Below the pieces are notes generated by a model. The model saw only the letters and a program-made list of their open reading frames with translations. It made no database searches and was not told where the DNA came from. Both the position numbers and the translations under genes were made by a program. From the IMG/VR virus record IMGVR_UViG_3300048072_000006, positions 1-41,797 of that record: a stretch of DNA of 41,797 bases. The stretch is one strand, 5' to 3'. The DNA comes from a virus. This document shows, piece by piece, positions 2,772 through 37,717 of this stretch (position 1 is its first letter; every line of letters starts with the position of its first letter).

Positions 2772-4397
2772 TCACACCACTCTGATTTGAAGGATAGAAC
2801 CGTTTCGGTAGAAGCCGCCCACGGGAACGCCGCCAGCCGCAGCGGCAGCGTCATCCGCATAGGATGTGAGGTTTTTGGTCCTCGCCGACACGATGTGGCC
2901 GGCAGGCTCCAGTTCTGTGTTCCCGGCAGAAGTAAACCTGGCCCCCACCCCTTGTCGGGTGATCGAGAAGATCGTGACTCCTGCGGGGTCGATGCCGTAA
3001 TAACCTTCACCGTCAGCGAATGCGCGCGTCTTGATCTTCCCATCAGAAGGAAGCGCCATCATGTTCGTGCCGTGCCCGGTGCGGCAGATATTGCGACAAA
3101 AAAGCCCCGCCACTGAAGGGAGTGTAGCTGCGTCGTCCATCTCGAAGTGTTCGATGATAACCTGCGCGTTCGTTCCGCCGCCAACGGTTACGCCTTGGCC
3201 TACCGCAGCGTGGTAAATATAAACCCGCGCAGGCGCTTCAAACGGCAGTGACGTTCCGAGCAGAAACATACCCCACGGAGATCCGGAGCGCGCCCCGTAG
3301 ACCGTGTTGACAAGCGTGCCGATTGTAACCTCGTCACAATATCCGAGCACAAGACCTTTCCCGCCGGTCCCAGATATACCGCACTGGATTATGCGGATAT
3401 CGGTGACGGTCACATCTGGCCCCCCCGCGACCCTATACCCGTCTATTTTTACACACTCGCCATTATGGCCATAAGGTGAGTAGGCGAACAGGCGGCCGAT
3501 GCAATTCGCGCCCGACAGGACGGAATTGGACCCAACGGTTCCGACGCCGGTACTGTCAACCGTGGCTAATAGAAGCCCGCGCCCACCCGCCTGCCAATTC
3601 ACCGCGACCACGCTGTCAATCGTGCAGGACGAGAACGATTTTGCCTCAAAGCAAAACGATGCGCCGGTTGCCCCGTTGAAGGTCGCGTCGCCATCAAGGG
3701 TAAGATTCCCTATCCAGCGCAGCCCTTGGATCGGCCCCGCCACCTTGAAGAGCGAGCCGCCCGCAACACCACCCCACACGAAACGCGTGCCCGCCTTCGC
3801 GGTAGAATACCACGGGTCTGAAGTGTCAATCAGCGCGTTCGCGTTGGAAGTATCGCCTCCCCAGATAATCGTGCAGTTGTTCCCCACGGTGGACAAGGCC
3901 GTTGTGGTGCCGTTACCGTAAATTACGGTAGAGTTGATCTTGATCTTGGCGCTCGGCATGATGAGCACTTTGCCGGGGCCGCACCAATCGAATGCGGCCT
4001 GCACGGCCACCGAGTCGTCCGTCACACCATCGGCGGCGATGCCGAAGTCCCCCCAGAACCTGATTGTATCAGTGAACCGCTTTAACTGTCCGCCGATCGA
4101 CGTTGACGCATAAGCCAAGGCTTTATCGAAGCTGATCAGATCGGCGCCATCGCCGGAGGCGGCGGAGGCGAGTTCGTCAAAAACTTGAACATCGATAGCC
4201 TGCTTGACCCGAAGTGACGACATGCGGTCGTCATTGGACGAGCCGGCCTCTGCCTCCGCCTGAGACGCAAGAGGAACAGCTACATCAACAAGCCCCTTTG
4301 GCGTCGTCTTCTCGACCGTCGTCCCATTGTCGAAAATGACAGCGGAGCCTGCTGTTGCTGTGCCGGCGGGGAGGTCTTTTGGTCTGATCTGTGCCAT
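2772..4397 (-). CDS. Tailspike with pectate-lyase-like right-handed beta-helix (probable polysaccharide depolymerase), 541 aa
   Basis: 'FWGDFGIAADGVTDDSVAVQAAFDW' matches the Pectate_lyase_3/GH28-type N-terminal motif, followed by Gly/Asn/Thr-rich beta-helix-like repeats. The start was re-picked at ATG 4397 ('MAQIRPKDLP'), 1 nt after the upstream stop at 4399. Confidence 0.85.
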   Translation of the reverse strand: MAQIRPKDLPAGTATAGSAVIFDNGTTVEKTTPKGLVDVAVPLASQAEAEAGSSNDDRMSSLRVKQAIDVQVFDELASAASGDGADLISFDKALAYASTSIGGQLKRFTDTIRFWGDFGIAADGVTDDSVAVQAAFDWCGPGKVLIMPSAKIKINSTVIYGNGTTTALSTVGNNCTIIWGGDTSNANALIDTSDPWYSTAKAGTRFVWGGVAGGSLFKVAGPIQGLRWIGNLTLDGDATFNGATGASFCFEAKSFSSCTIDSVVAVNWQAGGRGLLLATVDSTGVGTVGSNSVLSGANCIGRLFAYSPYGHNGECVKIDGYRVAGGPDVTVTDIRIIQCGISGTGGKGLVLGYCDEVTIGTLVNTVYGARSGSPWGMFLLGTSLPFEAPARVYIYHAAVGQGVTVGGGTNAQVIIEHFEMDDAATLPSVAGLFCRNICRTGHGTNMMALPSDGKIKTRAFADGEGYYGIDPAGVTIFSITRQGVGARFTSAGNTELEPAGHIVSARTKNLTSYADDAAAAAGGVPVGGFYRNGSILQIRVV

Positions 4398-4398
4398 C

Positions 4399-5199
4399 TT
4401 AAAATGCCCGGATGATCTTGTTCGCCACAATAGTGGGCTGAACATTGGGGTGGGCCTCGCCGCCACCGGCAGAGGAAATGCTGTGCGTGTGGGAGCTAGC
4501 TGACGATGTGCCCGCAGAGCCGCTCGTCACAGACTGGTAAGGGCCTGATCCGCCGCCTCCGGGTGTAAATCCGAAGTGCTGCTGGAAGCTGATTGTATGC
4601 GAGTGAGCGCCGTTTGAGCCTGTGGCCGCGCCATGGTCATGCGCAGGCATCTGCTCCAGCGTGAGCGCATGGCTTTGAGCGCCGCCGGCAGCACCGAGCG
4701 TCGTCCCGTCTACAGGGCTGGTGAGGCGGCCAGCGACAGTGCCGCCCATGTCATCACGCCCGGCGGATGTGCGCCCGCGACAGTCCGGGAGGTTGAACGT
4801 CGATGCCCCGTCGCCAGAGCCGTATTTCGTGCCGAGTACAGCGAACAGGGCGGCATAATCGACGCGGGAGATTGCCTGACCATAGCAGAGGAACCAACCA
4901 TCGGGGGCCGTATCGCCCCAGAAGTCAGCGCTCGCGCCAATCGGAAATCCCTGCGTTGAAAGCTGGCCAAGCGTGACAGCATCGCTGCTGTTCGTGCCGG
5001 GGGCGAGATTGATAGCCTTGAAGCCGCCATGGTTGAGATCGGCCTGCATTGCGCCGACCCCGGCACGGCTCAGCGAGCCAGTCAGGGCAGAGGCGATGTC
5101 TTGGAGCGGGGGATTGTGCTGCGACGGGAGAACTTGATCGCCATTATTGACGATTGCCCCCGCAGGCAAAGAATACACGCCAGTGCTATCTCTAGGCAT
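4399..5199 (-). CDS. Tail fibre protein with phage tail-collar domain, 266 aa
   Basis: 'WFLCYGQAISRVDYAALFAVLGTKYGSGDGASTFNLPDCRGR' is the classic collar-domain motif. The C-terminus is Gly/Ser/His-rich. Start ATG 5199 is preceded by GGAGG ('gatggaggcaaggaatATG'). Confidence 0.85.
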   Translation of the reverse strand: MPRDSTGVYSLPAGAIVNNGDQVLPSQHNPPLQDIASALTGSLSRAGVGAMQADLNHGGFKAINLAPGTNSSDAVTLGQLSTQGFPIGASADFWGDTAPDGWFLCYGQAISRVDYAALFAVLGTKYGSGDGASTFNLPDCRGRTSAGRDDMGGTVAGRLTSPVDGTTLGAAGGAQSHALTLEQMPAHDHGAATGSNGAHSHTISFQQHFGFTPGGGGSGPYQSVTSGSAGTSSASSHTHSISSAGGGEAHPNVQPTIVANKIIRAF

Positions 5200-5448
5200 A
5201 TTCCTTGCCTCCATCTGGCATGATGGCAAGGTCATAACCGATACCATCCTGAATAGGGTGGCCGCCAGATCGCGCTTGCGTAAAATTATTTAGATTGGGG
5301 TTGTGCCGCATGAACCCTGGCTTTCCTTGTTTTCAGGAAAGCGCATGAGGTAGGTTCAACCGCGCTATGCCGACCTTGATAGCACAGAGCGGCCCAGCGG
5401 GAAAGCGCCATTGTTGCGGCCAAGGAAGGAATAGGCTATGCCAGATCA

Positions 5449-5706
5449 ATGATCACGCCGCCCGAAGGGCCACTCCGCATTGTGGCGATCTTTTTCTTCG
5501 CGGCGATTCTCCGCGTCGGCGTAAAGTATCTTTGGGATAAGTCGAAGGCGCGCCGAACGGTCGTCCCGATGAAGTTGCGAAAAGGCGTGCATGTCCCGTG
5601 GGGCTTCCATGAGCGCTTTGCCTGGCACGCCGGGACCGTTGCATTCTTCTGGTTCGGCTTTTTCGCGTGCTTCGCTATCTATCTGTCATTAACGGAACAT
5701 AGGTAG
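5449..5706 (+). CDS. Small two-TM membrane protein on the opposite strand inside the late operon (moron candidate), 85 aa
   Basis: Two hydrophobic segments ('LRIVAIFFFAAILRVGV', 'GTVAFFWFGFFACFAIYLSL'). Hand-counted GC3 is about 70% in this frame. AAGGAAGGA lies upstream. The ORF is convergent with the 840-aa gene and overlaps it by 32 nt. Confidence 0.55.
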   Translation: MITPPEGPLRIVAIFFFAAILRVGVKYLWDKSKARRTVVPMKLRKGVHVPWGFHERFAWHAGTVAFFWFGFFACFAIYLSLTEHR

Positions 5707-28397: not shown

Positions 28398-28477
28398 GAT
28401 GACAGGCGCCACGGAGGGTCCATACTCTCCAGCACGCCCAAGCACAGGCAGCCGATTGCTGCTCACTGGAGGATAAG

Positions 28478-28648
28478 ATGACCCTTGCAGCAGAATTCTA
28501 CAGCGGCACCCGCGCTAAGGCTCCGGTGCTGGATATCGTGCGCATCGGAGACGGTCGTCGCGAGCATGTCGAGACGATCAACGTCATGGGCAAGCGCGAG
28601 GCTCGGGCAGTCGCCCGCGATCTCGGCGCCACTCCTTGGAACTTCTGA
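28478..28648 (+). CDS. Small early protein, 56 aa (below the ORF-track cut-off)
   Basis: Hand translation: 'MTLAAEFYSGTRAKAPVLDIVRIGDGRREHVETINVMGKREARAVARDLGATPWNF'. It is preceded by the same 16-nt TGGAGGATAAGATGAC initiation region as the next gene. Confidence 0.55.
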   Translation: MTLAAEFYSGTRAKAPVLDIVRIGDGRREHVETINVMGKREARAVARDLGATPWNF

Positions 28649-28709
28649 AGTCACCAGAGCACGGTCCCCCACCACCGTGCCGAGGCTGACTTTAGCTTTG
28701 GAGGATAAG

Positions 28710-29534
28710 ATGACAGAGCCAGCATTCCTGAATGAGAAATACGAGGCCACTGGCGAAACGAAGGTTTGGCTCGGCGTCACACTGCACCGCATCCGTGCCG
28801 TTGCCGCTATCGCTGCGCTCGGTATTTCCGCTGGCGATCTCGGCGGGTGGATCGAGAAGCCGGAGAATTTGCAGGCCTATGGCAACGCGTGGGTCTATGG
28901 CAACGCGCAGGTCTATGGCGACGCGCAGGTCTATGGCGACGCGCAGGTCTATGGCAACGCGTGGGTCTATGGCAACGCGCAGGTCTATGGCAACGCGCAG
29001 GTCTATGGCAACGCGCAGGTCTATGGCGACGCGCGGGTCTATGGCGACGCGCAGGTCTATGGCAACGCGTGGGCCTATGGCAACGCGTGGGTCTATGGCA
29101 ACGCGCAGGTCTATGGCGACGCGCGGGTCTATGGCGACGCGCAGGTCTATGGCAACGCGTGGGTCTATGGCAACGCGTGGGTCTATGGCAACGCGCAGGT
29201 CTATGGCAACGCGCAGGTCTCTGGCGACGCGTGGGTCTATGGCAACGCGCAGGTCTATGGCGACGCGCAGGTCTCTGGCCGAAATCACCTCGGATGGTTC
29301 TCCTGCGTCGGCAGCGAGAATGGAACGCTCTGTTGGTTCCTTAACAAAGACAAGGGTGTCACGGTCAATCGCGGATGCTTCTCCGGCTCGCTGGATCGGT
29401 TCCGCGAGGCCGTTGAGGAGACACACGGCGACAGCCCCAACGGGGAGCAATACCGCCTGCTAATCCAGTTCATCGAACTGCGGTCTCAGGATGCGCTCAA
29501 GGACTTTGATCCTGCCGAAGCGGAGGCAGGATGA
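28710..29534 (+). CDS. Hexapeptide-repeat (predicted beta-solenoid) early protein, 274 aa
   Basis: Start ATG 28710 follows GGAGGATAAG. N-terminal domain 'YEATGETKVWLGVTLHRIRAV...GISAGDLGGWIE', then 22 x (Y/S)G(N/D)A(Q/W/R)(V/A), then a Cys-containing C-terminal domain. A paralogue lies at 35394..35867. Confidence 0.8.
   Translation: MTEPAFLNEKYEATGETKVWLGVTLHRIRAVAAIAALGISAGDLGGWIEKPENLQAYGNAWVYGNAQVYGDAQVYGDAQVYGNAWVYGNAQVYGNAQVYGNAQVYGDARVYGDAQVYGNAWAYGNAWVYGNAQVYGDARVYGDAQVYGNAWVYGNAWVYGNAQVYGNAQVSGDAWVYGNAQVYGDAQVSGRNHLGWFSCVGSENGTLCWFLNKDKGVTVNRGCFSGSLDRFREAVEETHGDSPNGEQYRLLIQFIELRSQDALKDFDPAEAEAG
28878..29273 (+). repeat. Tandem repeat: 22 copies of an 18-bp unit (consensus TATGGCAACGCGCAGGTC), in frame within the CDS
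   Basis: Counted unit by unit. Variation is confined to four sites (TAT/TCT, AAC/GAC, CAG/TGG/CGG, GTC/GCC). Units 9-13 and 14-18 form a 90-bp higher-order repeat that differs at a single base (unit 11 GCC vs unit 16 GTC). Confidence 0.97.
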
Positions 29535-29827
29535 TGCCCCCCGCCAATGACCTTGAAGCCCGCGCTGATCGTATTGCCCGGCAATACAAGACAGCAGACT
29601 TGTTCAGGATCGCGGCACGGCTTGTGGAAGTCGCGAGCACAGAGCTTGACGGCGCCGTCGATGAGCATGGCGACGAGATCGACCTTAGCATTGAGACAGG
29701 GGAGGCCTTCGACAAGCTGGAGGCCCTTGCCGGCATGGCTGAAAACGCCCGCGATCCGGTGGACCCTCGCGACTGGGATATGTCCCGCAGCTTCGCCCAG
29801 CTCGGCCTTGTGCGGAGGGCGTCATGA
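29531..29827 (+). CDS. Hypothetical acidic early protein, 98 aa
   Basis: ATGA overlaps at both ends. No motif recognised. Confidence 0.6.
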   Translation: MMPPANDLEARADRIARQYKTADLFRIAARLVEVASTELDGAVDEHGDEIDLSIETGEAFDKLEALAGMAENARDPVDPRDWDMSRSFAQLGLVRRAS

Positions 29828-30192
29828 GCGGGTTCAAGGGAACGCCGGGGCCGTGGGCCGTGTCTTACGCCGACAACCCGAATCATGGGTCTTCGTGGGG
29901 TGGGTACTGGCAGATCGACGATCAGTACGATGCGGTCGCCTGCAACCAGTCTTGTTTCGCTGGCATCAATAAGCCGGACGTGAGCGAGGCCAACGCCCGC
30001 CTGCTCGCCGCCGCTCCTGATCTACTTGAGGCACTGCAAGAGCTTTATCATGCATACTGCTCTGAAACCGGATTTGCTGCCGCCGTGCGCATGGAAAGCG
30101 GGAAAGCCTACCCGTGGGAGCCGGGCGATATCGCTGAGGCGAAGGCCCTCGCCGCAATCTCTCGCGCCCTCGGTGAGGGAGAGAATGCATGA
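29824..30192 (+). CDS. Hypothetical early protein with 'GTPGPW...ANARLLAAAPDLLEAL' motifs, 122 aa
   Basis: ATGA-coupled. It shares 'AAPDLL(E/D)AL' and the C-terminal '(L/T)GEGEN' with 35864..36091. Confidence 0.65.
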   Translation: MSGFKGTPGPWAVSYADNPNHGSSWGGYWQIDDQYDAVACNQSCFAGINKPDVSEANARLLAAAPDLLEALQELYHAYCSETGFAAAVRMESGKAYPWEPGDIAEAKALAAISRALGEGENA

Positions 30193-30428
30193 GCGAGATC
30201 ACGCAAGCACAGCGCGACGCTTTGAAGTGGATGCGCGAGCGGGGCGGAGACGCTGCCGTGGTGCGCGTTCGCGGCGGCGGCAGATACATTCTTGCGCAGG
30301 GCGAGACGGCTCCATTTAGGCCGATAACGTGCCGCGCGCTGATCGACAACGGCCTTGCTGAATACGTCGATCTGAATGGCCGCAGGTCCGTTCGGTTTCG
30401 GCTTACTGCGAAAGGATTGGCAGCATGA
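30189..30428 (+). CDS. Hypothetical protein, 79 aa
   Basis: ATGA-coupled on both sides. Confidence 0.6.
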   Translation: MSEITQAQRDALKWMRERGGDAAVVRVRGGGRYILAQGETAPFRPITCRALIDNGLAEYVDLNGRRSVRFRLTAKGLAA

Positions 30429-30685
30429 CCCCCACCACCAACCACAGCCGTGCAGCAGCCCACTACACCGGACTTCTGGATCAGCTCCACGGTGAGAAGA
30501 TCATGGAAGCTCTGCGTGAACTGGAGCGCGCCCAGATCGATGCAAACAAGGCCAGCGTCATCTGCCAGTCGCGGGACTACGAGATTGCTCACCACGAGTT
30601 GCGCACCGCTCAGATCACGCTCTGGCGCGCCCTCAGCAATGCCGGGTTCGATCCGGCTGTTATCAGGGAGGGGATGGGGCAATGA
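30425..30685 (+). CDS. Hypothetical helical protein, 86 aa
   Basis: ATGA-coupled start. Confidence 0.6.
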   Translation: MTPTTNHSRAAAHYTGLLDQLHGEKIMEALRELERAQIDANKASVICQSRDYEIAHHELRTAQITLWRALSNAGFDPAVIREGMGQ

Positions 30686-30743
30686 GCAAACCCAAGCAGC
30701 TTTCCGCGAGCCTCGCCCGCGCCGCTCTCAGAGGAGAAGGGTG

Positions 30744-31067
30744 ATGGAGTTCTTCCGGGAAGGCACAGTTTCATCACGCAAAGAGCGTCAGTGCGACGCC
30801 TGTGGAACGATGATTGATCCGGGCGAGCGCCACACCTACATGGCCGCGAAATATGATGGTCAGTTCTACACTATGCGGAACCATGCCGAGTGCCGCGAAG
30901 CCGAATGCGCGCTTGCCAAGCTGCATGACCTCTACGGCGGCGATGATGGCTGGATAATGCTCAGCGACATGGATGAGCCGGATGATCTGGCTTTCCTGAA
31001 AGAGCACCATCCGGTCGCCTATGCGCGCGTCGCCCCACGCTATGCCCATTGGGAGACGGGAGAATGA
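30744..31067 (+). CDS. Hypothetical Cys/His-containing protein, 107 aa
   Basis: GGAGAAGGG lies before ATG 30744 ('MEFFREGTVSSRKERQCDACGTMIDPGERH...HAEC'). The track's longer N-terminus is a shadow frame of the previous gene. Confidence 0.6.
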   Translation: MEFFREGTVSSRKERQCDACGTMIDPGERHTYMAAKYDGQFYTMRNHAECREAECALAKLHDLYGGDDGWIMLSDMDEPDDLAFLKEHHPVAYARVAPRYAHWETGE

Positions 31068-31174
31068 CCCCCCGTCAAGCCATCGCCAGCATCAGCTTGT
31101 CCGATGCTCTGTGTGCATCAGCCTTAGTTGGCTTTGTTGCCTCCCTTATTGGAATGATGGGGATGATGCCGTGA
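31064..31174 (+). CDS. Possible 36-aa single-TM peptide
   Basis: ATGA-coupled. 'MTPRQAIASISLSDALCASALVGFVASLIGMMGMMP'. Confidence 0.3.
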   Translation: MTPRQAIASISLSDALCASALVGFVASLIGMMGMMP

Positions 31175-31319
31175 CCCGTCCGTTCGGCTGCGCAGCCAGC
31201 ATCAAACACGGCGGCCGGTCAACTGATCGCTCCGCCCACAAGCAACACCGCATATCACTTATGCCCATGGATCAAGAGAAGCGGTCCATTTGGGATATGT
31301 TCAGGAGGAAGATGTGACA

Positions 31320-31940
31320 ATGGAAGTCTACAAAGCTATTGCCGCCGTGCAAGGTGAACTTGCCAAGGTCGGGATTTCAAAGGATCGGCGCAATACTCAG
31401 GGCACCGGCTACAATTTCCGGGGCATTGATGACGTTTACGCCGCGCTAGCCCCGTTGCTGGCCAAGAACGGCCTGTGCGTTATTCCCCGTATGACCGAGC
31501 GCAGCATGATCGAGCGCACGACCAAGAATGGCGGTGCGATCTTCTACACAACGGTCAAGGCCGAGTTTGACTTCGTCGCCGTCGCAGATGGGTCGAAGCA
31601 CACCGCTTGCACCTATGGAGAGGCAATGGACACGTCCGACAAGTCCACCAACAAGGCAATGTCGGCGGCTTACAAATATGCCGCTTTCCTGACGTTCGCG
31701 ATCCCCACCGATGGGGATAACGATGCTGATGCAGCGACTCATGAGGTCCAGGCACGGACGACGATCAGCAATGAGCAGTTTGCTGAACTGAGCGACTTGG
31801 TTGAGCGCACCAACACTGACCTGGAGCCGCTTTGTAAATATTACAAGATCGACGCACTGGCCATGCTGCCAGCCGCCAAGTTCGGCCACTGCAAAGCACA
31901 GTTGGCCAAGAAGATCAAACCAGAGCAGGAGGCCGCGTGA
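31320..31940 (+). CDS. erf: ERF-family single-strand annealing protein, 206 aa
   Basis: 'VYKAIAAVQGELAKV...GTGYNFRGIDDVYAALAPLLAKNGL' is the ERF N-terminal signature. AGGAGGAAG lies before ATG 31320. Confidence 0.8.
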   Translation: MEVYKAIAAVQGELAKVGISKDRRNTQGTGYNFRGIDDVYAALAPLLAKNGLCVIPRMTERSMIERTTKNGGAIFYTTVKAEFDFVAVADGSKHTACTYGEAMDTSDKSTNKAMSAAYKYAAFLTFAIPTDGDNDADAATHEVQARTTISNEQFAELSDLVERTNTDLEPLCKYYKIDALAMLPAAKFGHCKAQLAKKIKPEQEAA

Positions 31941-32383
31941 TGGAGCAGAGGCGCCTTCTTTGGGTGTGGTCGGACATAAAGGGGCGCTGCCTCAATCCGA
32001 ACCATCGCCAGTACAAGGACTATGGCGGGCGCGGCATCACTGTCTGCGATCGATGGATGGCATTTGCCAACTTCCTAGCGGACATGGCGCCGCGACCTGC
32101 CGGGCTAATGCTCGATCGCAAAGACAATGACGGCCCTTACTCGCCCGAGAATTGCCGTTGGGCGACACGCAAAGAGCAGAACAGCAATCGGCGGAATTGC
32201 ATCTACATTGAAGACGTGGACGGCAAAGTGACCCTGAGGGAATACTGCCGCCGCCGCGAGCTGGCTTACCGGCCGATCGTGAAGCGCATTCAGGACCGCA
32301 ACTGGCCGGTCGAGCTGGCGCTGTCCGTACCTGTCGGCGCGCCAACTCATTTCCTCAAGTCGACACAAAGGAAATCCGCATGA
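31940..32383 (+). CDS. Conserved phage DNA-binding/HNH_3-like (degenerate) protein, 147 aa
   Basis: 'W..IKGRCLNPNH..YKDYGGRGITVCDRW..F..FLADMAPRP.G..LDRKDNDGPYSPENCRWATRKEQNSN' is a recurrent phage motif resembling the second half of HNH_3, with His replaced. Confidence 0.6.
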   Translation: MEQRRLLWVWSDIKGRCLNPNHRQYKDYGGRGITVCDRWMAFANFLADMAPRPAGLMLDRKDNDGPYSPENCRWATRKEQNSNRRNCIYIEDVDGKVTLREYCRRRELAYRPIVKRIQDRNWPVELALSVPVGAPTHFLKSTQRKSA

Positions 32384-33048
32384 CCGTGGATCTTGTCCAA
32401 GGCACCCCTGAGTGGCTGGCTGCTAGAGCGGGAAGCTTGGGAGCCTCCCAAGTTGCAGACGTAATTGCGAAAACGAAATCTGGCTGGGGCGCATCGCGGG
32501 CAAATGTCCGCGCGCGTATCGTAGCCGAACGGTTGACTGGCCGTCCCTCTGAAACGTTCACCAATGCCGCCATGGACTGGGGCCGTGAACAAGAGGAGGC
32601 CGCGCGCGTCGCTTATGCCTTCTTGGAAGGGCGGTCAGTCACCGAATGCGGGATTTTCCTTCATCCCGAGATCAAGGGAACACACGCCAGCCCAGACGGC
32701 TTGGTGGACGACGACGGGCTTGTCGAGATTAAGGCGCCCAACACCTCGACACACATCGACACGCTTAAGTCTCAGGCCATCCCAGGCCGCTACGTCACGC
32801 AGATGCAATGGCAGATGGCTTGCACCGGTCGCCAGTGGTGCGACTTTGTGTCGTTCGATCCCCGGATGCCCGAGGAAATGCAGTTGTTCGTGAAGCGGCT
32901 GCATCGGGATCAAACCCTGATCGAAGAACTTGAAAGCACGGTTTGCGACTTCCTCGCCGAAGTGCAGGCCGACGTGGACCAACTCACCAGACTTTACCGC
33001 AGCGCCGTGGAAGCGCCGCGCGTCTTTAGCCCCCTGGAGGCAGGATAA
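32380..33048 (+). CDS. YqaJ/lambda-Exo-like PD-(D/E)XK recombination exonuclease, 222 aa
   Basis: 'QGTPEWLAARAGSLGASQVADVI', 'ASPDGLVDDDGLVEIKAP', 'QMQWQMACTG' are YqaJ-family motifs. Confidence 0.85.
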   Translation: MTVDLVQGTPEWLAARAGSLGASQVADVIAKTKSGWGASRANVRARIVAERLTGRPSETFTNAAMDWGREQEEAARVAYAFLEGRSVTECGIFLHPEIKGTHASPDGLVDDDGLVEIKAPNTSTHIDTLKSQAIPGRYVTQMQWQMACTGRQWCDFVSFDPRMPEEMQLFVKRLHRDQTLIEELESTVCDFLAEVQADVDQLTRLYRSAVEAPRVFSPLEAG

Positions 33049-33461
33049 TGCAGAACATCACCGTGGCAGGCCGCATCGGAGCAGATGCCGTCACCCGCTC
33101 GACCAACAGCGGCGACAAGGTCACCAGCTTTAACGTGGCCGTCGATTTCCGCGATGGGCGCGACAAGGCAACCAACTGGTGGCGCGTCTCATTCTGGGGG
33201 AAGCGCGGCGATGCCTTGCAGCCATACTTGCTCAAGGGGACGAGCGTCACCGTAACCGGCGAGTTCAGCCTGTCCGAATACGAGGGCAAGCCGCAACTCA
33301 ATATCCGCGCCAATGACGTGACGCTGCAAGGCTCACGAGGCGAGGGCCGGGGCAATGGCGGCAACACTGCCCCGCGCGATGAGAGCCGGGCGGCAGGCGG
33401 CTTTGATGATGGGTTGGACGGGGACGAAATCCCCTTTATCCGCATGGACGGCATGCTCTGA
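33048..33461 (+). CDS. ssb: Single-stranded DNA-binding protein, 137 aa
   Basis: OB-fold N-terminus 'ITVAGRIGADAVTR...WWRVSFWGKRGDAL..YLLKGTSVTVTGE', a Gly-rich linker and the acidic 'DGDEIPF' motif. Confidence 0.88.
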   Translation: MQNITVAGRIGADAVTRSTNSGDKVTSFNVAVDFRDGRDKATNWWRVSFWGKRGDALQPYLLKGTSVTVTGEFSLSEYEGKPQLNIRANDVTLQGSRGEGRGNGGNTAPRDESRAAGGFDDGLDGDEIPFIRMDGML

Positions 33462-33880
33462 TGCTCCGCGCCGTCGCCTTTAAGCCGCGCAGACAGAACA
33501 GTAGGCGTGCTGACGAATGGAAAAGGTGCGAGCCTTACCTTCGCTGGCTGCGTCGGCTGCCCTGCTTCCTGAGCGTCCATGACAAGGATCATGTTTGCGA
33601 AGGCAAGGTGCGCGCGTGCCACTTTGATCCTTGGGGCGACAAGGGAGTGTCGAGCAAGGTGGCGGATGCCTCCGCCCTCCCGATGTGTGACGGAGCCCAT
33701 GCGGAGCAGACTGATCGGATTGGCTGGCCCAAGTTTCAGCGCAAATATGCTTTCGATGGCGGGCACGTCGTCACGGCCTACTGGCTGGAATGGCTCAAGA
33801 CGCCAGCGGGCCGCGCATGGGAGATCGAACACGAGGCAGCAGCTTCCTACGTCGAGACTATGCGGAGGCGTTGGGCATGA
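33461..33880 (+). CDS. DUF968/Ref-like (degenerate HNH-type) protein, 139 aa
   Basis: 'CEGKVRACHFDPWGDKGVSSKVADASALPMCDGAHAEQ' resembles the DUF968 core ('HH....KG.g.K..D...iPLC..HH.E'). Confidence 0.5.
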   Translation: MLRAVAFKPRRQNSRRADEWKRCEPYLRWLRRLPCFLSVHDKDHVCEGKVRACHFDPWGDKGVSSKVADASALPMCDGAHAEQTDRIGWPKFQRKYAFDGGHVVTAYWLEWLKTPAGRAWEIEHEAAASYVETMRRRWA

Positions 33881-34269
33881 GCGGACACACCATCCGGCTT
33901 ACCGACGACTGGCAGCGCGCCCGTGCTCAACGCCTGATCGCGAAGGCCCCCGCTGGCTACGTTGTCACGGTGAACGAACCAAAGCGGACATGCGCTCAGT
34001 CGGACAAGATGTGGGCAATGCTCACGGACATTTCGCACGCAATGCCGATGGGCCGCCGCCACACGCCTGACGACTGGAAAGCGATCGTCATGAACGCCTG
34101 CGGTTGGGAGTGCCAGTTTGTCGAGGGGCTGGACGGGCGACCGTTCCCCAAGGGTTTCCGGTCATCGGAGCTTACCAAGTCGCAAATGTCCACGATGATC
34201 GACTGGATGCAGGCGTTCGGAGACGGTCACGGCGTCCAGTGGGGCGATGAGGCGGAGAGGGCAGCATGA
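33877..34269 (+). CDS. ninB: NinB/Orf-family recombination mediator, 130 aa
   Basis: By eye it aligns with lambda NinB: 'VVTVNEPKRTCAQSDKMWAMLTDIS' vs 'VVTIQERNRSLDQNRKLWACLGDVS', and 'MIDWMQAFGDGHGVQWGDEA' vs 'LLELIQAFGTERGVKWSDEA'. ATGA-coupled start at 33877. Confidence 0.85.
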   Translation: MSGHTIRLTDDWQRARAQRLIAKAPAGYVVTVNEPKRTCAQSDKMWAMLTDISHAMPMGRRHTPDDWKAIVMNACGWECQFVEGLDGRPFPKGFRSSELTKSQMSTMIDWMQAFGDGHGVQWGDEAERAA

Positions 34270-34405
34270 CCTGCTCTATCGGGCGGATCAGGCTCAGCCA
34301 GAACTGTCCATTGTACGAGGATGAGTTTTCCAACGCCACCCGCAGGCAAGCCCCAGGCAGCGGGACACCGGAAGTGGTGGATATGTCTGGGGAAAGGGAT
34401 TTGTG

Positions 34406-34654
34406 ATGGCAGATGAAGTTATTCCGCAGCGCCTGTCTGAACTGGCCGGCGAGCGCATTCTGGAAGCTGTGCCCAATTTAGAGGTGCGGCACCCGTTTGA
34501 TCCAGACGCTTCTGGAGCATGCTTCACGCTGGATGACCGAACTTATCTGGTCTTTGAAGACCCGAGCGACGGGTATCGCAGCACCGCATCCCCGCTGATG
34601 AGCTTTGCAGGCTCGGAGCCCTCAAATGGCCGACATGCCGTGACAGGAGTATAG
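34406..34654 (+). CDS. Hypothetical protein, 82 aa
   Basis: ATG 34406 is coupled (TGATG) to a possible 46-codon ORF at 34266..34406. No motif recognised. Confidence 0.5.
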   Translation: MADEVIPQRLSELAGERILEAVPNLEVRHPFDPDASGACFTLDDRTYLVFEDPSDGYRSTASPLMSFAGSEPSNGRHAVTGV

Positions 34655-34748
34655 CAGTGCGCAAAGGGGCTGAGCCACTGGCTGCAATGCGATGTCGGTC
34701 AATTGATGGACGAGGCCCGCAGTCGCCATGGCGGCGATTGATGATCAG

Positions 34749-34937
34749 CTACAAGGCTGATTCGCGCCTCTCGATCTCAGCTTCAATGGCGGCACGGATG
34801 AAGCTGGATTTCTTTTCGGCGCCGGAAAGAACCGCCTTGATCCGATCAAGCGTTCCGGCGCGAAAGCGCGCCAGCGTCTGTTCGCCGTTGATCTTGGGGC
34901 GCCCAACCTTGGGTCGGCGCTTCGGTCGCTCTTCCAT
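34749..34937 (-). CDS. Ribbon-helix-helix (CopG/Arc/Mnt-type) DNA-binding protein, 62 aa
   Basis: A basic N-terminal arm is followed by 'TLARFRAGTLDRIKAVLSGAEKKSSFIRAAIEAEIERRE' (beta-strand, helix, helix pattern). AGGAG lies 11 nt before ATG 34937. It is the lone minus-strand gene inside the plus arm. Confidence 0.7.
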   Translation of the reverse strand: MEERPKRRPKVGRPKINGEQTLARFRAGTLDRIKAVLSGAEKKSSFIRAAIEAEIERRESAL

Positions 34938-34941
34938 TTTT

Positions 34942-35006
34942 GCGATATCTCCTATTGACGTACCGGATGGCACCAAATATATAGGTGATATCGCCTGTGG
35001 TGGCAA
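34942..35006. promoter_or_regulatory. Face-to-face promoters sharing one -10 box, bracketed by a 14-bp inverted repeat (putative RHH operator)
   Basis: Plus strand: TTGACG (34955-60)-N17-TATATA (34978-83). Minus strand: TTGCCA (rc of 35001-06)-N17-the same palindromic TATATA. The inverted repeat is GCGATATCTCCTAT (34942-55) / ATAGGTGATATCGC (34981-94), matching at 13 of 14 positions. Confidence 0.55.
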
Positions 35007-35049
35007 GTATTGTGAGAGCGGCTGCCACTTATGAACAAGGACAAAGCCA

Positions 35050-35394
35050 ATGACTGACAACGAAGGCCCGCCGCAATGGGCAATGGATCGCGCCCGCGAA
35101 CTGGTCAGGGCGCAATGTCAAGCACAGGGGGTGTCCGTCGCATTCGCCGCTGACATCTTTCACCCGGAAAGGCACCCTGCGGTCAAAGTCCTCGCCGGCA
35201 TCATCGCGACGCACGAGAAGCCGCCCGTCGATCCCGATCTTGAGATCGCGCGGGAGGCTTTGGCGCTGACTTGTGAGGGGCATAGCAATCCCGGTTCCGC
35301 CGCCATGGCCCGCGCCGGGGAATACGACGACACGGCTGGCGTCACCGCCGCCCGCCATGCCCTGCGCCTCGCGCGCGAGAGGGGGGTGCTGTGA
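35050..35394 (+). CDS. Hypothetical protein, first gene of the RHH-adjacent operon, 114 aa
   Basis: AAGGA lies 8 nt before ATG 35050. No motif recognised. Confidence 0.6.
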   Translation: MTDNEGPPQWAMDRARELVRAQCQAQGVSVAFAADIFHPERHPAVKVLAGIIATHEKPPVDPDLEIAREALALTCEGHSNPGSAAMARAGEYDDTAGVTAARHALRLARERGVL

Positions 35395-35867
35395 TGGCAA
35401 AGCGTTATGAATTTACCGGCGAAACCGAGGTCTATGCGGGCCACACTTTGCACCGCATCCGCGCCATTGTTGACATGCCGGCCATCGGCGTCTCGGTCGG
35501 CGATCTGGGCGGCTGGATCGAAAGCGAAGACAATCTGCCCCATGACGGGACCGCCTGGGTATTCCCTGCCGCCAAGGCCATGGGAGAGTTTACAAGACTC
35601 ATGGGCGGCACCTTCCGGGGCGGCGCCTTCGAGGGCGGCACCTCTACCAAGTTGCAGCCGCTCTACCTCGCCGGGCTGTGCTGGCAGATCACCATCACCG
35701 ACGAACATATGACGATCGGGTGCGAGACCCACAAGCTCAGCGACTGGTGGGCCTTCGATGACAGCACCATCGATGCCATGGATCGAAATGATGCGTTGCC
35801 CTTCTGGCGCGCGCACAAGGCGACCTTGCGGGCCCTTTGCGCCGCAACCGGGAGGATCGCAACATGA
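35394..35867 (+). CDS. Repeat-poor paralogue of the hexapeptide-repeat protein, 157 aa
   Basis: 'YEFTGETEVYAGHTLHRIRAI...GVSVGDLGGWIESEDNL' parallels 28710's 'YEATGETKVWLGVTLHRIRAV...GISAGDLGGWIEKPENL'. The C-terminal 'LCW...MTIGC' parallels 'LCW...VTVNRGC'. TGATG coupling. Confidence 0.7.
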   Translation: MAKRYEFTGETEVYAGHTLHRIRAIVDMPAIGVSVGDLGGWIESEDNLPHDGTAWVFPAAKAMGEFTRLMGGTFRGGAFEGGTSTKLQPLYLAGLCWQITITDEHMTIGCETHKLSDWWAFDDSTIDAMDRNDALPFWRAHKATLRALCAATGRIAT

Positions 35868-36091
35868 AAGGCAAGGCAACCGCCGGCGGCGACCACTACG
35901 ACACCGCCGCGCCCGACCTGCTTGATGCGCTGATCGACATTCTCGGCTCGCTCAACGTGGCATCCCGGAACCCGAACATCCCCGACGACACCATTGTCCC
36001 GGTGGACATGACGATGGGCGAAATCCGCAAGGGCCTCGCCGCGATCTTGCGCGCCACTGGCGAGGGAGAGAATCGCCATGATTCTCGGTGA
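35864..36091 (+). CDS. Short paralogue of 29824..30192 ('AAPDLLDAL...ATGEGEN'), 75 aa
   Basis: GGGAGGA lies before ATG 35864, with an ATGA overlap. It shares motifs with the 122-aa protein. Confidence 0.65.
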   Translation: MKGKATAGGDHYDTAAPDLLDALIDILGSLNVASRNPNIPDDTIVPVDMTMGEIRKGLAAILRATGEGENRHDSR

Positions 36092-36260
36092 CACCTGCGC
36101 CGAATGCGGCGGGCAGGGGGCCGGCGCGCGACAGCTCTGCCCGGCGTGCGAACCGCTCTATGCGGCGCTCGATCCCCGCCATGACGCGCTGGTGACGGAC
36201 GAATGCCTGTGCGCGGACTGCATCAGGCCGGCGGCATTGCGGACGCAAAGCCATGACTGA
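36078..36260 (+). CDS. Cys-rich zinc-ribbon-like peptide, 60 aa
   Basis: 'CAECGGQG...CPACEP...CLCADC'. It overlaps both neighbours by 8-14 nt. Confidence 0.45.
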   Translation: MILGDTCAECGGQGAGARQLCPACEPLYAALDPRHDALVTDECLCADCIRPAALRTQSHD

Positions 36261-36783
36261 AAGCATGATCGCGGCGGTCGAAATCCTAGATGCATTATCA
36301 CGTCAGGTTGGCGACGCCATCTTCGCGACCGAGTTGGCTTTCTGCGGCGGCGCGCGCCGGTGTGATTTCTGGACTATCAGCCCGAATTCATCGGCTGGCT
36401 TCAAGGCGCGAGCCTACGAGGTGAAGGTCTCGCGCGCGGACTTCCGCCGCGATACCGCCATGAAGCAGCGCGAGGCGCGGCTGTTTTCGGACCAATTCTT
36501 CTATGTCACGCCGCCTGGATTGGTGCGGCCTGAAGAAGTGCCGGACTGGGCAGGACTGATCGAGTTTGACGGAGTGTCGCTCAAGACCATCGTGCCGGCT
36601 CCGTACCGCGACAAGGATGCTCCCACTTGGGAGCTTGTCGTCTCCCTGATCCGCAATAGCGGCCATATCAACCGCGACACCGACCTTTTGAAGCTGAGAT
36701 TGCGCGAGGCGGAGCGGACGATACGCCGCGCGCGAAAGTTGATCGAGGATGCCGGACGCATGGCGTGGGAGTTCGGCCTATGA
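36253..36783 (+). CDS. MmcB-like PD-(D/E)XK nuclease-fold protein, 176 aa
   Basis: 'RRCDFWTIS...AYEVKVSRADFRRDTAMKQREARLFSDQFFYVTPPGL' fits D...E.K plus the MmcB/DUF1052 pattern ('VEIKSS.ADFR.D.K....Y...CDRFYFA.P'). Confidence 0.6.
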   Translation: MTESMIAAVEILDALSRQVGDAIFATELAFCGGARRCDFWTISPNSSAGFKARAYEVKVSRADFRRDTAMKQREARLFSDQFFYVTPPGLVRPEEVPDWAGLIEFDGVSLKTIVPAPYRDKDAPTWELVVSLIRNSGHINRDTDLLKLRLREAERTIRRARKLIEDAGRMAWEFGL

Positions 36784-36843
36784 GCAGCGCGCCCGCCGCC
36801 GATCACGGGCCTGTGGCGGATACACGGGGGGAGGCTGGCGACC

Positions 36844-37527
36844 ATGCGTGATCCATCCCCGCGCGTCCTGATCGCCTGCGAGTTTTCCGGCACGGTGCGC
36901 GACGCCTTTCTGGCGCGCGGCTTCGATGCTTGGTCCTGCGACCTGCTGGCCGATGAGCGGGGCAGCAACCGGCATATCCGGGGCGATGTCCGCGATGTGC
37001 TGGGCGATGGCTGGGACCTGCTGATCGTCGCGCATCCGCCCTGCACGAGGCTGTGCAACTCGGGCGTGCGCTGGCTCAGCCGGCCGCCTCGAGGCAAGAC
37101 GCTGGCGCAGATGTGGGCTGATCTGGACGCGGGCGCGGCGCTGTTTTCGACCCTGTGGACGGCGGACGTGCCGCTGGTGGCGATCGAGAATCCGGTGATG
37201 CATCGCCATGCCGCCGCGCGCATCGCGGACTGGCGGCCGCCGGCGCAGTCTGTCCAGCCATGGCAGTTCGGCGAATGGGAGACCAAGCGGACATGCTTCT
37301 GGACGCGCGGCCTGCCGCTGCTGCGGCCGGACCATGCGACGCTGGCAGATGCCAGGCGCGCGCTCGGGCTCGACGAAGCCGCGCGGCCGGCCGCACGGGT
37401 GCACAGGATGCCGCCCGGCGCCGATCGCGCCCGCGAGCGCTCCCGCTTCTTCCCCGGCATGGCCCGCGCCATGGCCGCGCAATGGGGCGACGCCGCGCTG
37501 GCGCGGGCGGGGAGGGTGGCGGCGTGA
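36844..37527 (+). CDS. Short DNA (cytosine-5)-methyltransferase-like protein, 227 aa
   Basis: Motif-I-like 'IACEFSGTVRDAF', motif IV 'HPPCTRL', motif VI 'AIENPV', C-terminal 'FFPGMARAMAAQW'. GGGGGGAGG lies before the ATG. The local GC is very high. Confidence 0.62.
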   Translation: MRDPSPRVLIACEFSGTVRDAFLARGFDAWSCDLLADERGSNRHIRGDVRDVLGDGWDLLIVAHPPCTRLCNSGVRWLSRPPRGKTLAQMWADLDAGAALFSTLWTADVPLVAIENPVMHRHAAARIADWRPPAQSVQPWQFGEWETKRTCFWTRGLPLLRPDHATLADARRALGLDEAARPAARVHRMPPGADRARERSRFFPGMARAMAAQWGDAALARAGRVAA

Positions 37528-37570
37528 GCTGGTCGATCGTCCCCGCCGCGTCCTGCGCACAGATCGAGCC

Positions 37571-37717
37571 ATGGCTGTGACGCGCCCGGCGCACCCGATG
37601 AGCGCGCAGGCCAGTTGCGAGGCGGCGCGGGCGCACGATCTCTATCGGCGGGCACGGATGATCCACGAGCTGGCGGTGGCTGGGGTCCTGCTTTGTAGCG
37701 GGTGGATTGCACCTTGA
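37571..37717 (+). CDS. Possible 48-aa terminal ORF of the plus arm
   Basis: 'MAVTRPAHPMSAQASCEAARAHDLYRRARMIHELAVAGVLLCSGWIAP'. Weak support. Confidence 0.25.
   Translation: MAVTRPAHPMSAQASCEAARAHDLYRRARMIHELAVAGVLLCSGWIAP

What the first reader, a model, noticed from the sequence alone, without database searches (positions are those of the whole stretch)
28710..36091. Partly duplicated early cassette: repeat protein plus 'AAPDLL' protein at 28710-30192 and again at 35394-36091
Both cassettes open with the same N-terminal domain (YE.TGET.V..G.TLHRIRA......G.S.GDLGGWIE) and share a related 'LCW...T(V/I)..GC' C-terminal domain. Only the first copy has the expanded hexapeptide array; the second has a few degenerate units ('GTAWVFPAAKAMGEF...GGTFRGGAFEGG'). 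Each is followed by a protein with 'AAPDLL(E/D)AL' and a '(L/T)GEGEN' C-terminus, directly in the second cassette and after one intervening 98-aa ORF in the first. The two copies sit under different controls, the main early promoter and the RHH-guarded promoter. That suggests a two-gene functional unit that has diverged into differently regulated versions. I do not recognise this unit as a described system.
Basis: partly seen in the sequence, partly recalled or inferred. Interest (0 to 1): 0.6.

Follow-up and report, generated by a model that had tools for sequence, protein, structure and literature searches.

The report
Two recurring phage early-gene neighbours
This phage carries two separate pairs of early genes, each a rod-like repeat protein followed by a small P22-orf78-type protein; the two families are neighbours in other phages more often than chance allows, but neither needs the other, the two pairs did not arise by duplication in this genome, and the function of both families is unknown.

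Summary
The genes are real and lie where stated.

**The repeat proteins.** A1 (28710-29534) and A2 (35394-35867) share a YdcK-type N-terminal cap (52% identity over 65 aa, E 1e-21). Their repeats differ: A1 has 22 hexapeptides, A2 has about 2 pentapeptide units. Their C-terminal heads show no detectable similarity, so the 'LCW..GC' match is chance.

**The small proteins.** B1 (29824-30192) and B2 (35864-36091) both belong to Pfam PF27050 / phrog_1273, the family of P22 orf78. B2 lacks the N-terminal half.

**Not a duplication in this genome.** Each of the four genes has closer relatives in other phages than its partner here.

**The neighbourhood is real but optional.**
- Among 111 dereplicated loci seeded on the two head types, a PF27050 gene lies within 700 bp in 8. 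That is about a 10-fold local excess (p 7e-6).
- Gene order and spacing vary, and the partner B proteins are scattered over their family tree.
- About 90% of A genes have no B nearby, and about 99% of B genes have no A nearby.
- In the nearest relative of cassette 2, A2 is intact while B2 is reduced to 23 codons.

**Verdict.** This is an undescribed, optional gene neighbourhood between two catalogued families of unknown function. It is not an obligate two-gene system. Earlier reports of this scan described both families separately on other DNA.

The parts
28478..28648 (+). 56-aa first ORF of the rightward early operon. Its 16-nt translation start TGGAGGATAAGATGAC is repeated exactly in front of A1.
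   Evidence: phrog_20574 at 7.7e-7
28710..29534 (+). A1: a 274-aa capped beta-solenoid protein, made of a YdcK-type N cap, 22 hexapeptide units and a 'c1' C-terminal head
   Evidence: PF18836 2e-30; phrog_7964 5e-88; NF040481 1.5e-18 (66.8 bits, cut-off 350); PDB 2f9c YdcK 1.8e-20
28871..29279 (+). 18-bp tandem array, 22.7 copies, 90% matches. It encodes (Y/S)G(N/D)A(Q/W/R)(V/A) hexapeptides. The ten closest homologues have 3-9 units.
29531..29827 (+). 98-aa ORF between A1 and B1. It is kept together with B1 in the nearest relative (L005, tblastx 82% identity), is not found in any other A-B locus, and matches no family.
29824..30192 (+). B1: a 122-aa full-length member of PF27050 (Phage_P22_Y8K6) / phrog_1273, with a TPGPW N-terminal part, the ANARLLAAAPDLLEAL helix and a C-terminal helix
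   Evidence: model with mean pLDDT 64, helices at 51-79, 85-92 and 100-116
34749..34939 (-). 63-aa divergent ORF read by the first stage as an RHH regulator. The reading is plausible from the sequence pattern only; nothing supports it.
   Evidence: no hit in Pfam, PHROGs or PDB
34942..34994 (.). 14-nt inverted repeat GCGATATCTCCTAT / ATAGGTGATATCGC bracketing the proposed TTGACG-N17-TATATA promoter of the second operon
   Evidence: the site is not called by the promoter scan
35050..35394 (+). 114-aa ORF upstream of A2. It is kept together with A2 in the relative L089/L090 and matches no family.
35394..35867 (+). A2: a 157-aa protein made of a YdcK-type N cap, about 2 GGxFx pentapeptide units and a 'c2' C-terminal head
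   Evidence: phrog_5070 2.7e-19 (residues 1-65); phrog_31567 1.9e-12 (residues 84-150). Model with pLDDT 82 and both end domains near or above 90. Foldseek matches YdcK 2pig for the first 70 aa only.
35603..35643 (+). 15-bp repeat, 2.7 copies. It is the contracted remnant of a pentapeptide array that is 20 units long in the homologue P0037, whose 77-aa C-terminus is identical to A2's.
35864..36091 (+). B2: a 75-aa short member of PF27050/phrog_1273. It covers profile positions 57-101 only and has no TPGPW half. Its ATGA start overlaps the A2 stop. In relative L089 it is reduced to 23 codons.

Best explanation
The two 'cassettes' are two independently acquired pairs of genes. They come from two large, mobile, often multi-copy families of phage early accessory genes. 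They are not a duplicated unit.

**A proteins.** A1 and A2 are capped beta-solenoid proteins. Each has a YdcK-type N-terminal cap, a repeat rod and a small C-terminal head.
- The rod changes in length quickly, presumably by slippage or unequal recombination: 22 hexapeptides in A1 against 3-9 in close relatives, and 2 pentapeptides in A2 against 20 in a near-identical homologue.
- The rod can also change in type.
- The head comes in unrelated kinds, called c1 and c2 here.

**B proteins.** B1 and B2 are PF27050 proteins, the family of P22 orf78. B2 is a short form.

**The neighbourhood.** Solenoid-head genes and PF27050 genes tend to sit side by side in the promoter-near accessory part of early operons. 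The tendency is real, but it is an optional neighbourhood. The genes are exchanged singly or sometimes together, and each persists intact without the other.

**Shown:** the homologies, the array variation, the excess of adjacent pairs, and the independent loss of either partner.

**Inferred:** that both act separately as early host-directed binding proteins (host takeover or counter-defence), with the solenoid serving as a stiff spacer of variable length that presents the head.
For: **Homology and family membership:**

**Not each other's nearest relatives:**
- A1's cap is 76-78% identical to P0156/P0160 but 56% to A2.
- A2's cap is 87% identical to P0037, and A1 ranks 260th of 324 among its homologues.
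- B2's best match is P0029, not B1.

**Heads unrelated:**

**Array length varies between near-identical genes:**

**Excess of adjacent pairs:**
- c1-seeded loci: 13 of 80 hold a PF27050 gene, 11 of them within 700 bp (6 of 51 clusters).
- c2-seeded loci: 9 of 79 hold one, 4 of them within 500 bp.
- Dereplicated: 8 of 111, p 7e-6.

**The pairing is optional:**
- Of 160 PF27050-seeded loci, 3 hold an A-like gene within 10 kb and 1 has it adjacent.
- In 401 alphaproteobacterial genomes, PF27050 occurs in 22 and the cap in 2, with no genome in common.
- Within A1's own cluster (at least 70% head identity), L174, L175, L260 and L261 lack B altogether despite room on the contig, and L262 has one only 8.5 kb away.
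- L089 keeps A2 while B2 is a 23-codon remnant.
- L005 keeps the 98-aa ORF and B1, but a different repeat protein sits in A1's slot.

**Order and spacing vary**, and the intervening genes are not homologous.

**Partner B proteins are scattered on the family tree:** 13 changes against 12-15 in shuffles.

**Both families are often multi-copy:** 18 of 160 loci hold two or more PF27050 genes, and the 78 cap-seeded loci hold 111 cap genes.

**ATGA gene overlaps occur at several junctions of both operons** (A1/98-aa ORF, 98-aa ORF/B1, B1/next ORF, A2/B2), so they say nothing special about A and B.
Against: - The peak of adjacent pairs is sharp: 8 hits within 700 bp against 3 between 0.7 and 5 kb. 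It is tighter than the spacing between paralogous PF27050 copies. A shared 'accessory zone' alone does not easily explain that, and it leaves room for a functional link.
- Both unrelated head types show the tendency.
- The pair occurs twice in one 42-kb genome. A simple placement model over about 21 early genes gives p of about 0.02-0.07 (my own estimate from the ORF list).
- No function is known for either family, so 'they act independently' is inference only.
Confidence: 0.55

Rival explanations
1. Optional functional pair. The PF27050 protein works together with the solenoid protein, for example by binding its cap or head as a modulator, adaptor or partner in host takeover or counter-defence. 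Selection therefore keeps the two genes adjacent wherever both are present. The phage carries two such pairs, with different heads and under different promoters.
For: - A roughly tenfold local excess of PF27050 genes next to c1- and c2-type genes after dereplication (p 7e-6).
- Seen in contigs from 43% to 65% G+C.
- Direct A-to-B adjacency in about seven lineages.
- The partner B proteins come from many branches of the family, so the juxtaposition arose repeatedly.
- Two pairs lie in this one genome.
Against: - About 90% of A genes have no B within 10 kb, and about 99% of B genes have no A.
- Order flips in 3 lineages, and one or two unrelated genes intervene in 4.
- A2's relative has lost B2 but keeps A2 intact.
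- B1's relative has swapped A1 for a different protein.
- No model of a known defence system matches any of the proteins.
- Translational coupling is generic to the operon.
Confidence: 0.3
2. Ancient segmental duplication of one A-B pair inside this phage lineage, followed by divergence, replacement of the head domain and change of repeat type.
For: The same two families occur in the same order twice in one genome. The N-terminal caps are clearly homologous.
Against: - Each gene has much closer relatives in other phages than its supposed duplicate: caps at 76-87% identity against 56%, and B2 at 48% to P0029 against 38% to B1.
- The heads are unrelated.
- The repeats have different periods.
- Each cassette has its own relatives that carry only that cassette: L173 and L264 for cassette 1, L089 for cassette 2.
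Confidence: 0.05
3. Pure coincidence. Two abundant early accessory families happen to lie next to each other twice, with no preference of any kind.
For: - The first three surveys (PF27050-seeded, cap-seeded, alphaproteobacterial genomes) found almost no co-occurrence.
- Repeat-coding segments in general are not enriched next to PF27050 genes: 7 observed against about 5 expected.
Against: The head-seeded surveys show a significant peak of adjacent pairs after dereplication.
Confidence: 0.1

Closest known systems
YdcK of Salmonella / E. coli (PDB 2F9C, 2PIG; NCBIfam NF040481; Pfam PF18836 B_solenoid_ydck)
   Same: - A1 and A2 share YdcK's N-terminal cap: NF040481 positions 23-113 (A1) and 23-64 (A2), and Foldseek probability 1.0 over 70 aa of 2pig.
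- A1 also has the YdcK-type hexapeptide repeat (PF18836 2e-30, 11 stretches).
   Different: - Scores are far below the equivalog cut-off: 66.8 and 23.3 bits against 350.
- The phage proteins are shorter.
- Their arrays are near-perfect and variable in length.
- They end in c1 or c2 heads, and no match to YdcK extends into either head.
- A2 has pentapeptide units instead of hexapeptides.
- YdcK itself has no known function; the library search found none.
Pfam PF27050 Phage_P22_Y8K6 / PHROG phrog_1273 (P22 orf78, between ral and gene 17 in the early-left operon)
   Same: - B1 is a full-length member.
- B2 matches the C-terminal half.
- My profile of the family finds P22 orf78 at 29076-29312 (3.9e-6).
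- Like P22 orf78, these genes sit in early operons.
   Different: B2 lacks the TPGPW half, a form seen in only 7 of 179 surveyed genes. No function is known for the family, and no association with solenoid proteins has been described in the material I could search.
Pentapeptide-repeat proteins of phages (e.g. Caulobacter phage BL94 gp020; 'pentapeptide repeat' proteins in BFVD)
   Same: The c2 head of A2 occurs at the C-terminus of annotated phage pentapeptide-repeat proteins (53% identity to BL94 gp020). Sister proteins of A2 carry 4-20 GGxFx or GGxMx units.
   Different: A2 itself has only about 2 units and no Pfam pentapeptide hit. The GGxFx unit is not the canonical A(D/N)LXX unit. The DNA-mimic roles known for Qnr/MfpA-type proteins were not tested here and are only an analogy.
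Mosaic accessory ('moron') gene slots of lambdoid early operons (the P22 ea/ral region, the lambda b-region and nin region)
   Same: Small, translationally coupled genes of unknown function. They are swapped one at a time between related phages and are often multi-copy. They sit between the early promoter and the recombination genes (ERF, YqaJ, SSB, NinB), as in the window and in L173.
   Different: Here two specific families show a statistically supported preference for being immediate neighbours. That is not a general feature of such slots.

Membership tests
YdcK family (NCBIfam NF040481, equivalog) | Whole-protein score at or above the curated cut-off of 350 bits | tested here: not met
   A1 scores 66.8 bits and A2 scores 23.3 bits
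YdcK family (fold level) | N-terminal cap domain that leads into the beta-helix | tested here: met
   NF040481 positions 23-113 (A1) and 23-64 (A2). PDB 2f9c at 1.8e-20 for A1. The A2 model matches 2pig over 70 aa with probability 1.0 and E 0.04.
Pfam PF18836 B_solenoid_ydck | YdcK-type 17-residue solenoid repeat above the gathering score (30 bits) | tested here: met
   A1: 102.4 bits, 11 stretches. A2: no hit, so the feature is met for A1 only.
Hexapeptide acyltransferases (Pfam PF00132) | Score above the gathering cut-off of 27 bits | tested here: not met
   A1 scores 16.2 bits, E 0.0087. The array is uninterrupted, with no loop or catalytic insert visible in the sequence.
Bactofilin (Pfam PF04519) | Score above the gathering cut-off of 27.9 bits | tested here: not met
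   A1 scores 27.2 bits, just below the cut-off
Pfam PF27050 Phage_P22_Y8K6 / phrog_1273 | Match over the whole profile: TPGPW part, AAAPDLLEAL helix and C-terminal helix | tested here: met
   B1: phrog_1273 3.9e-16 over positions 3-101 of 103, with PF27050 precomputed. B2: 1.2e-4 over positions 57-101 only, so B2 is a partial member.
Pentapeptide repeat family (Pfam PF00805 type) | Pfam hit to a pentapeptide-repeat model | tested here: not met
   No such hit for A2 at E up to 1. Only about 2 GGxFx units are present.
Known anti-phage defence or toxin-antitoxin two-gene systems (PADLOC-DB) | Match of any component to a defence-system model | tested here: not met
   No hit for A1, A2, B1, B2 or the 98-aa ORF at E up to 1. 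A genes also occur without B in about 90% of loci, which does not fit a toxin needing its antidote.
   8 of 111 dereplicated head-seeded loci, about a tenfold local excess, p 7e-6
   Order flips, non-homologous intervening genes and independent loss of either partner

The most novel reading that the evidence does not exclude
Solenoid-head proteins (c1 or c2 type) and PF27050 proteins form an optional two-component early module. The small PF27050 protein binds or tunes the rod protein, and the pair travels between phages as a mobile host-takeover or counter-defence cassette. This phage would carry two versions with different heads, expressed from different promoters.
Probability: 0.25. Interest if true: 0.55.

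Novelty: new member of a known kind. Interest (0 to 1): 0.33.

Why it matters
Both families are among the commonest unexplained genes in the early regions of tailed phages. The c2 head alone has 1158 representative clusters at 50% identity. PF27050 occurs in 22 of the 401 alphaproteobacterial genomes sampled.

A statistically supported preference for sitting side by side is a cheap, testable lead to the function of either family: interaction assays, co-expression, or tests against panels of defence systems in laboratory strains.

The case also documents two general points:
- Capped solenoid proteins keep their end domains while the rod changes in length (2 against 20 units, 22 against 3-9 units) and even in repeat type.
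- The outcome of a neighbourhood survey depends strongly on which family seeds it. Three surveys were negative before the head-seeded ones were positive.

Taken alone, the pair in this window is ordinary accessory cargo.

Tried and rejected
**Negative co-occurrence surveys**
1. PF27050-seeded surveys of IMG/VR (80 loci) and of named bacterial genomes (80 loci) found an A-like gene within 10 kb in only 3 loci. I first read this as refuting the pairing. The head-seeded surveys overturned that reading.
2. The cap-seeded survey (78 loci) gave one weak case, L130. That set held 41 c1-type genes.
3. In 401 alphaproteobacterial genomes no genome had both the cap and PF27050. The c1 profile hit one genome weakly.

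**Profiles and searches that failed**
- phrog_31567 and phrog_5070 proved unspecific, because they also match ordinary penta- and hexapeptide proteins.
- tblastn of B1 against 50,697 phage records found nothing.
- A single-protein scan of genome contigs with B1 found nothing.

**A more general idea, 'any repeat protein next to PF27050'**
- Tandem repeats at DNA level: 6 observed against 5.0 expected within 2 kb.
- Repeats of period 5 or 6 at protein level: 1.57 against about 1.1 per 100 kb.
- Neither is significant.

**Other ideas tested and dropped**
- Homology between the c1 and c2 heads: rejected by BLASTP, by hhalign and by a shuffle control.
- A third conserved component: the 98-aa, 114-aa and 56-aa ORFs have homologues only in the immediate relatives.
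- The c2 head occupying an ocr-like first-gene slot in Yersinia phage fEV-1: dropped, because g01 lies next to the terminase genes.

**Structure and literature**
- Fold search of the A2 model: only YdcK and uncharacterised phage proteins matched, and nothing matched the c2 head in the PDB.
- The B1 model was too uncertain (pLDDT 64) to search with.
- Literature searches for YdcK, xkdD and phage pentapeptide anti-defence proteins gave no functional data.
- 'Relatives' of a virus record cannot be drawn by the genome search.

Full report
**Setting.** The window is a complete 41.8-kb virus record with direct terminal repeats. A rightward early operon starts at about 28478. It runs through A1, a 98-aa ORF, B1, small ORFs, ERF, YqaJ, SSB and NinB-like genes to about 34654. 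A short leftward ORF follows at 34749-34939. A second rightward operon (35050-37717) then holds a 114-aa ORF, A2, B2, a small Cys-rich ORF, an MmcB-like nuclease and a DNA methyltransferase. Several gene junctions in both operons are ATGA overlaps, including A1/98-aa ORF, 98-aa ORF/B1 and A2/B2, so translational coupling of A and B is not special.

**The observation.**
- A1 (28710-29534, 274 aa) and A2 (35394-35867, 157 aa) share an N-terminal domain: 52% identity over 65 aa, E 1e-21.
- B1 (29824-30192, 122 aa) and B2 (35864-36091, 75 aa) are homologous over B2's length: 38% identity over 63 aa, E 1e-6.
- A1 has 22.7 copies of an 18-bp unit. A2 has 2.7 copies of a 15-bp unit.
- The claimed common C-terminal 'LCW..GC' domain does not hold. 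BLASTP gives E 4.8. Family profiles of 88 and 16 sequences give an hhalign probability of 0.4%. Their score is reached by 37 of 200 column shuffles. LCW is not conserved in A1's family. Only a short motif, GCx4LxE[FW], is in register.

**What the A proteins are.**
- A1 matches Pfam PF18836 (YdcK beta-solenoid repeat, 2e-30), phrog_7964, NCBIfam YdcK_fam (66.8 bits, far below the 350-bit cut-off) and the solved YdcK structures 2F9C/2PIG.
- A2 matches the same models through its cap only.
- The A2 model (pLDDT 82) has two confident end domains and a poorly defined middle. In the PDB only YdcK matches, over the first 70 residues. In the viral library only uncharacterised YdcK-like and pentapeptide-repeat phage proteins match.
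- Aligning A2's full-length homologues shows a constant cap and a constant 'c2' head, with a middle that varies in length and in kind: GGTFx or GGVMx pentapeptides, or YGNAQV hexapeptides.
- P0037 has a C-terminal 77 aa identical to A2's and a cap 87% identical, but 20 units instead of 2. P0040 and P0041 differ only by 9 against 15 units.
- A1's ten closest homologues have 3-9 hexapeptides against its 22.
- The c2 head alone has 1158 representative clusters at 50% identity. It is always C-terminal, in proteins of 59-295 aa, and it also occurs as a stand-alone small protein such as Yersinia phage fEV-1 g01.
- The same architecture was described by earlier reports of this scan on other DNA.

**What the B proteins are.**
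- B1 is a full-length member of phrog_1273 and of Pfam PF27050 'Phage_P22_Y8K6'.
- A profile built from its homologues finds P22 orf78, which lies between ral and gene 17 in the early-left operon.
- The family has an N-terminal TPGPW part, an invariant ANARLIAAAPDLLEAL helix and a C-terminal AxAAIAKAxG helix.
- The B1 model is helical from residue 51 on but of low confidence overall.
- B2 covers only the second half of the profile, a form seen in 7 of 179 surveyed genes.
- No function is on record in the library I could search.

**Not a duplication in this genome.**
- A1's cap is 76-78% identical to those of other phages but 56% to A2's.
- Among 324 homologues of A2's cap, A1 ranks 260th.
- B2's best match is P0029 (48%), ahead of B1 (38%).
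- The rods have different periods, and the heads are unrelated.
- Each cassette has relatives that carry only that cassette.

**Is A-B a unit? The first surveys said no.**
- Of 80 IMG/VR and 80 bacterial-genome loci seeded on PF27050 (2.3 Mb), three had an A-like gene within 10 kb. Only one was adjacent: L226, a Magnetovibrio MAG, where a pentapeptide protein with a c1 head sits directly upstream.
- Of 78 cap-seeded loci, one had a weak PF27050 gene nearby.
- In 401 alphaproteobacterial genomes PF27050 occurred in 22 and the cap in 2, never together.
- Five contexts of full-length A2 homologues had no adjacent PF27050 gene.

**The head-seeded surveys changed this.**
- Among 80 IMG/VR loci seeded on c1-type proteins, 13 hold a PF27050 gene within 10 kb. 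Eleven of those lie within 700 bp, in 6 of 51 clusters at 85% head identity.
- Among 79 c2-seeded loci, 9 hold one and 4 lie within 500 bp.
- With one representative per cluster (111 loci), the density of PF27050 genes is 5.55 per 100 kb within 700 bp of the A gene. It is 0 per 100 kb at 0.7-2 kb, 0.57 at 2-5 kb and 0.43 at 5-10 kb. Binomial p is 7e-6, or 4e-5 when only 0-5 kb is considered.
- The peak is tighter than the spacing between paralogous PF27050 copies.
The two families are preferential neighbours.

**It is nevertheless not a tight system.**
- The order is A then B directly in the L293 group, L346, L226, L288 and cassette 2 of the window.
- It is A, x, B in cassette 1 of the window, L173, L264 and L312, with one or two x genes that are not homologous between loci.
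- It is B then A in L285, L366 and L130.
- The 15 partner B proteins are spread over the family tree: 13 changes, against 12-15 in shuffles.
- Within A1's own cluster (at least 70% head identity), only the window, L173 and L264/L265 keep a nearby B. L174, L175, L260 and L261 have none, and L262 has one only 8.5 kb away, all with ample flanking DNA.
- L089 and L090 share the 114-aa ORF and an intact A2 homologue with the window. Of B2 they retain only the last 23 codons, recognisable at DNA level.
- L005 shares the 98-aa ORF (82%) and B1 (63%), but has a different repeat protein in A1's place.
- No component matches a known defence system. A without B is the rule, which excludes a toxin-antidote logic.

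**Regulation.**
- A promoter-like site lies at 28399-28426, upstream of the first operon.
- The second operon's proposed promoter is bracketed by a 14-nt inverted repeat, but the scan does not call it.
- The divergent 63-aa ORF has no family or structure match.
- Separate control is plausible but unshown.

**Reading.**
- Most likely (0.55): these are two independently acquired pairs from two mobile early accessory families that tend to be neighbours but work and persist separately.
- An optional functional partnership remains a serious rival (0.3), because the peak of adjacent pairs is sharp and is seen for both head types.
- Function is unknown on both sides. My commitment that these are early host-directed binding proteins, with the solenoid as a stiff spacer of variable length, is inference from position and architecture only.

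Noticed in passing
G391:C1:1049356-1052484 and 1136582-1138323 (alphaproteobacterial genome): At least seven tandem paralogues (open frames of 214-332 aa) with a c2-type head, matching phrog_31567 positions 45-138. They lie in two clusters in a 2.1-Mb genome, which has no PF27050 hit.
   Followed up: no
G401:C13:4325-5629: A pentapeptide-repeat-like ORF (5420-5629, minus strand) lies about 800 bp upstream of a PF27050 gene (4325-4597, minus strand) in an alphaproteobacterial genome. This may be a further example of the neighbourhood.
   Followed up: no
L005:3-308: In the closest relative of cassette 1, the slot of A1 holds a different repeat protein: S(K/Q)LAA(S/A)G-type units and a C-terminal domain with no Pfam hit. 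So the slot is one where repeat proteins get swapped.
   Followed up: partly
L089:6776-7168: Directly after the A2 homologue and the B2 remnant comes a gene made of near-perfect 17-aa tandem repeats (ADPAVRAKMSEASKKAL).
   Followed up: no
L173:6550-7197: The 215-aa gene between A and B in this relative ends in a low-complexity (A/Y/D/N) run, AYADAYADVYANANANAYADADADANAYAYAHAYADANAYAYA.
   Followed up: no
window 28467-28482 and 28699-28714: The same 16-nt translation start, TGGAGGATAAGATGAC, precedes both the 56-aa first ORF and A1.
   Followed up: no
L073:1-477 and L226:5186-5812: The c1 head also occurs behind pentapeptide arrays (TIGGG/TIEGG units in L073, ANLRG units in L226). Both head types therefore combine with both repeat periods, and in L226 without a YdcK cap.
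   Followed up: partly
L095/L103, L124/L128, L132/L138 (IMG/VR contigs); Lactobacillus phage LfeInf: Several phage contigs carry two or more cap-domain paralogues: five places in LfeInf, and 111 cap genes in the 78 cap-seeded loci.
   Followed up: partly
window 36078-36260: A 60-aa ORF after B2 has a CxxCxGxG...CxxC pattern and weak hits (E 0.03-0.06) to zinc-ribbon and DnaJ-finger models.
   Followed up: no
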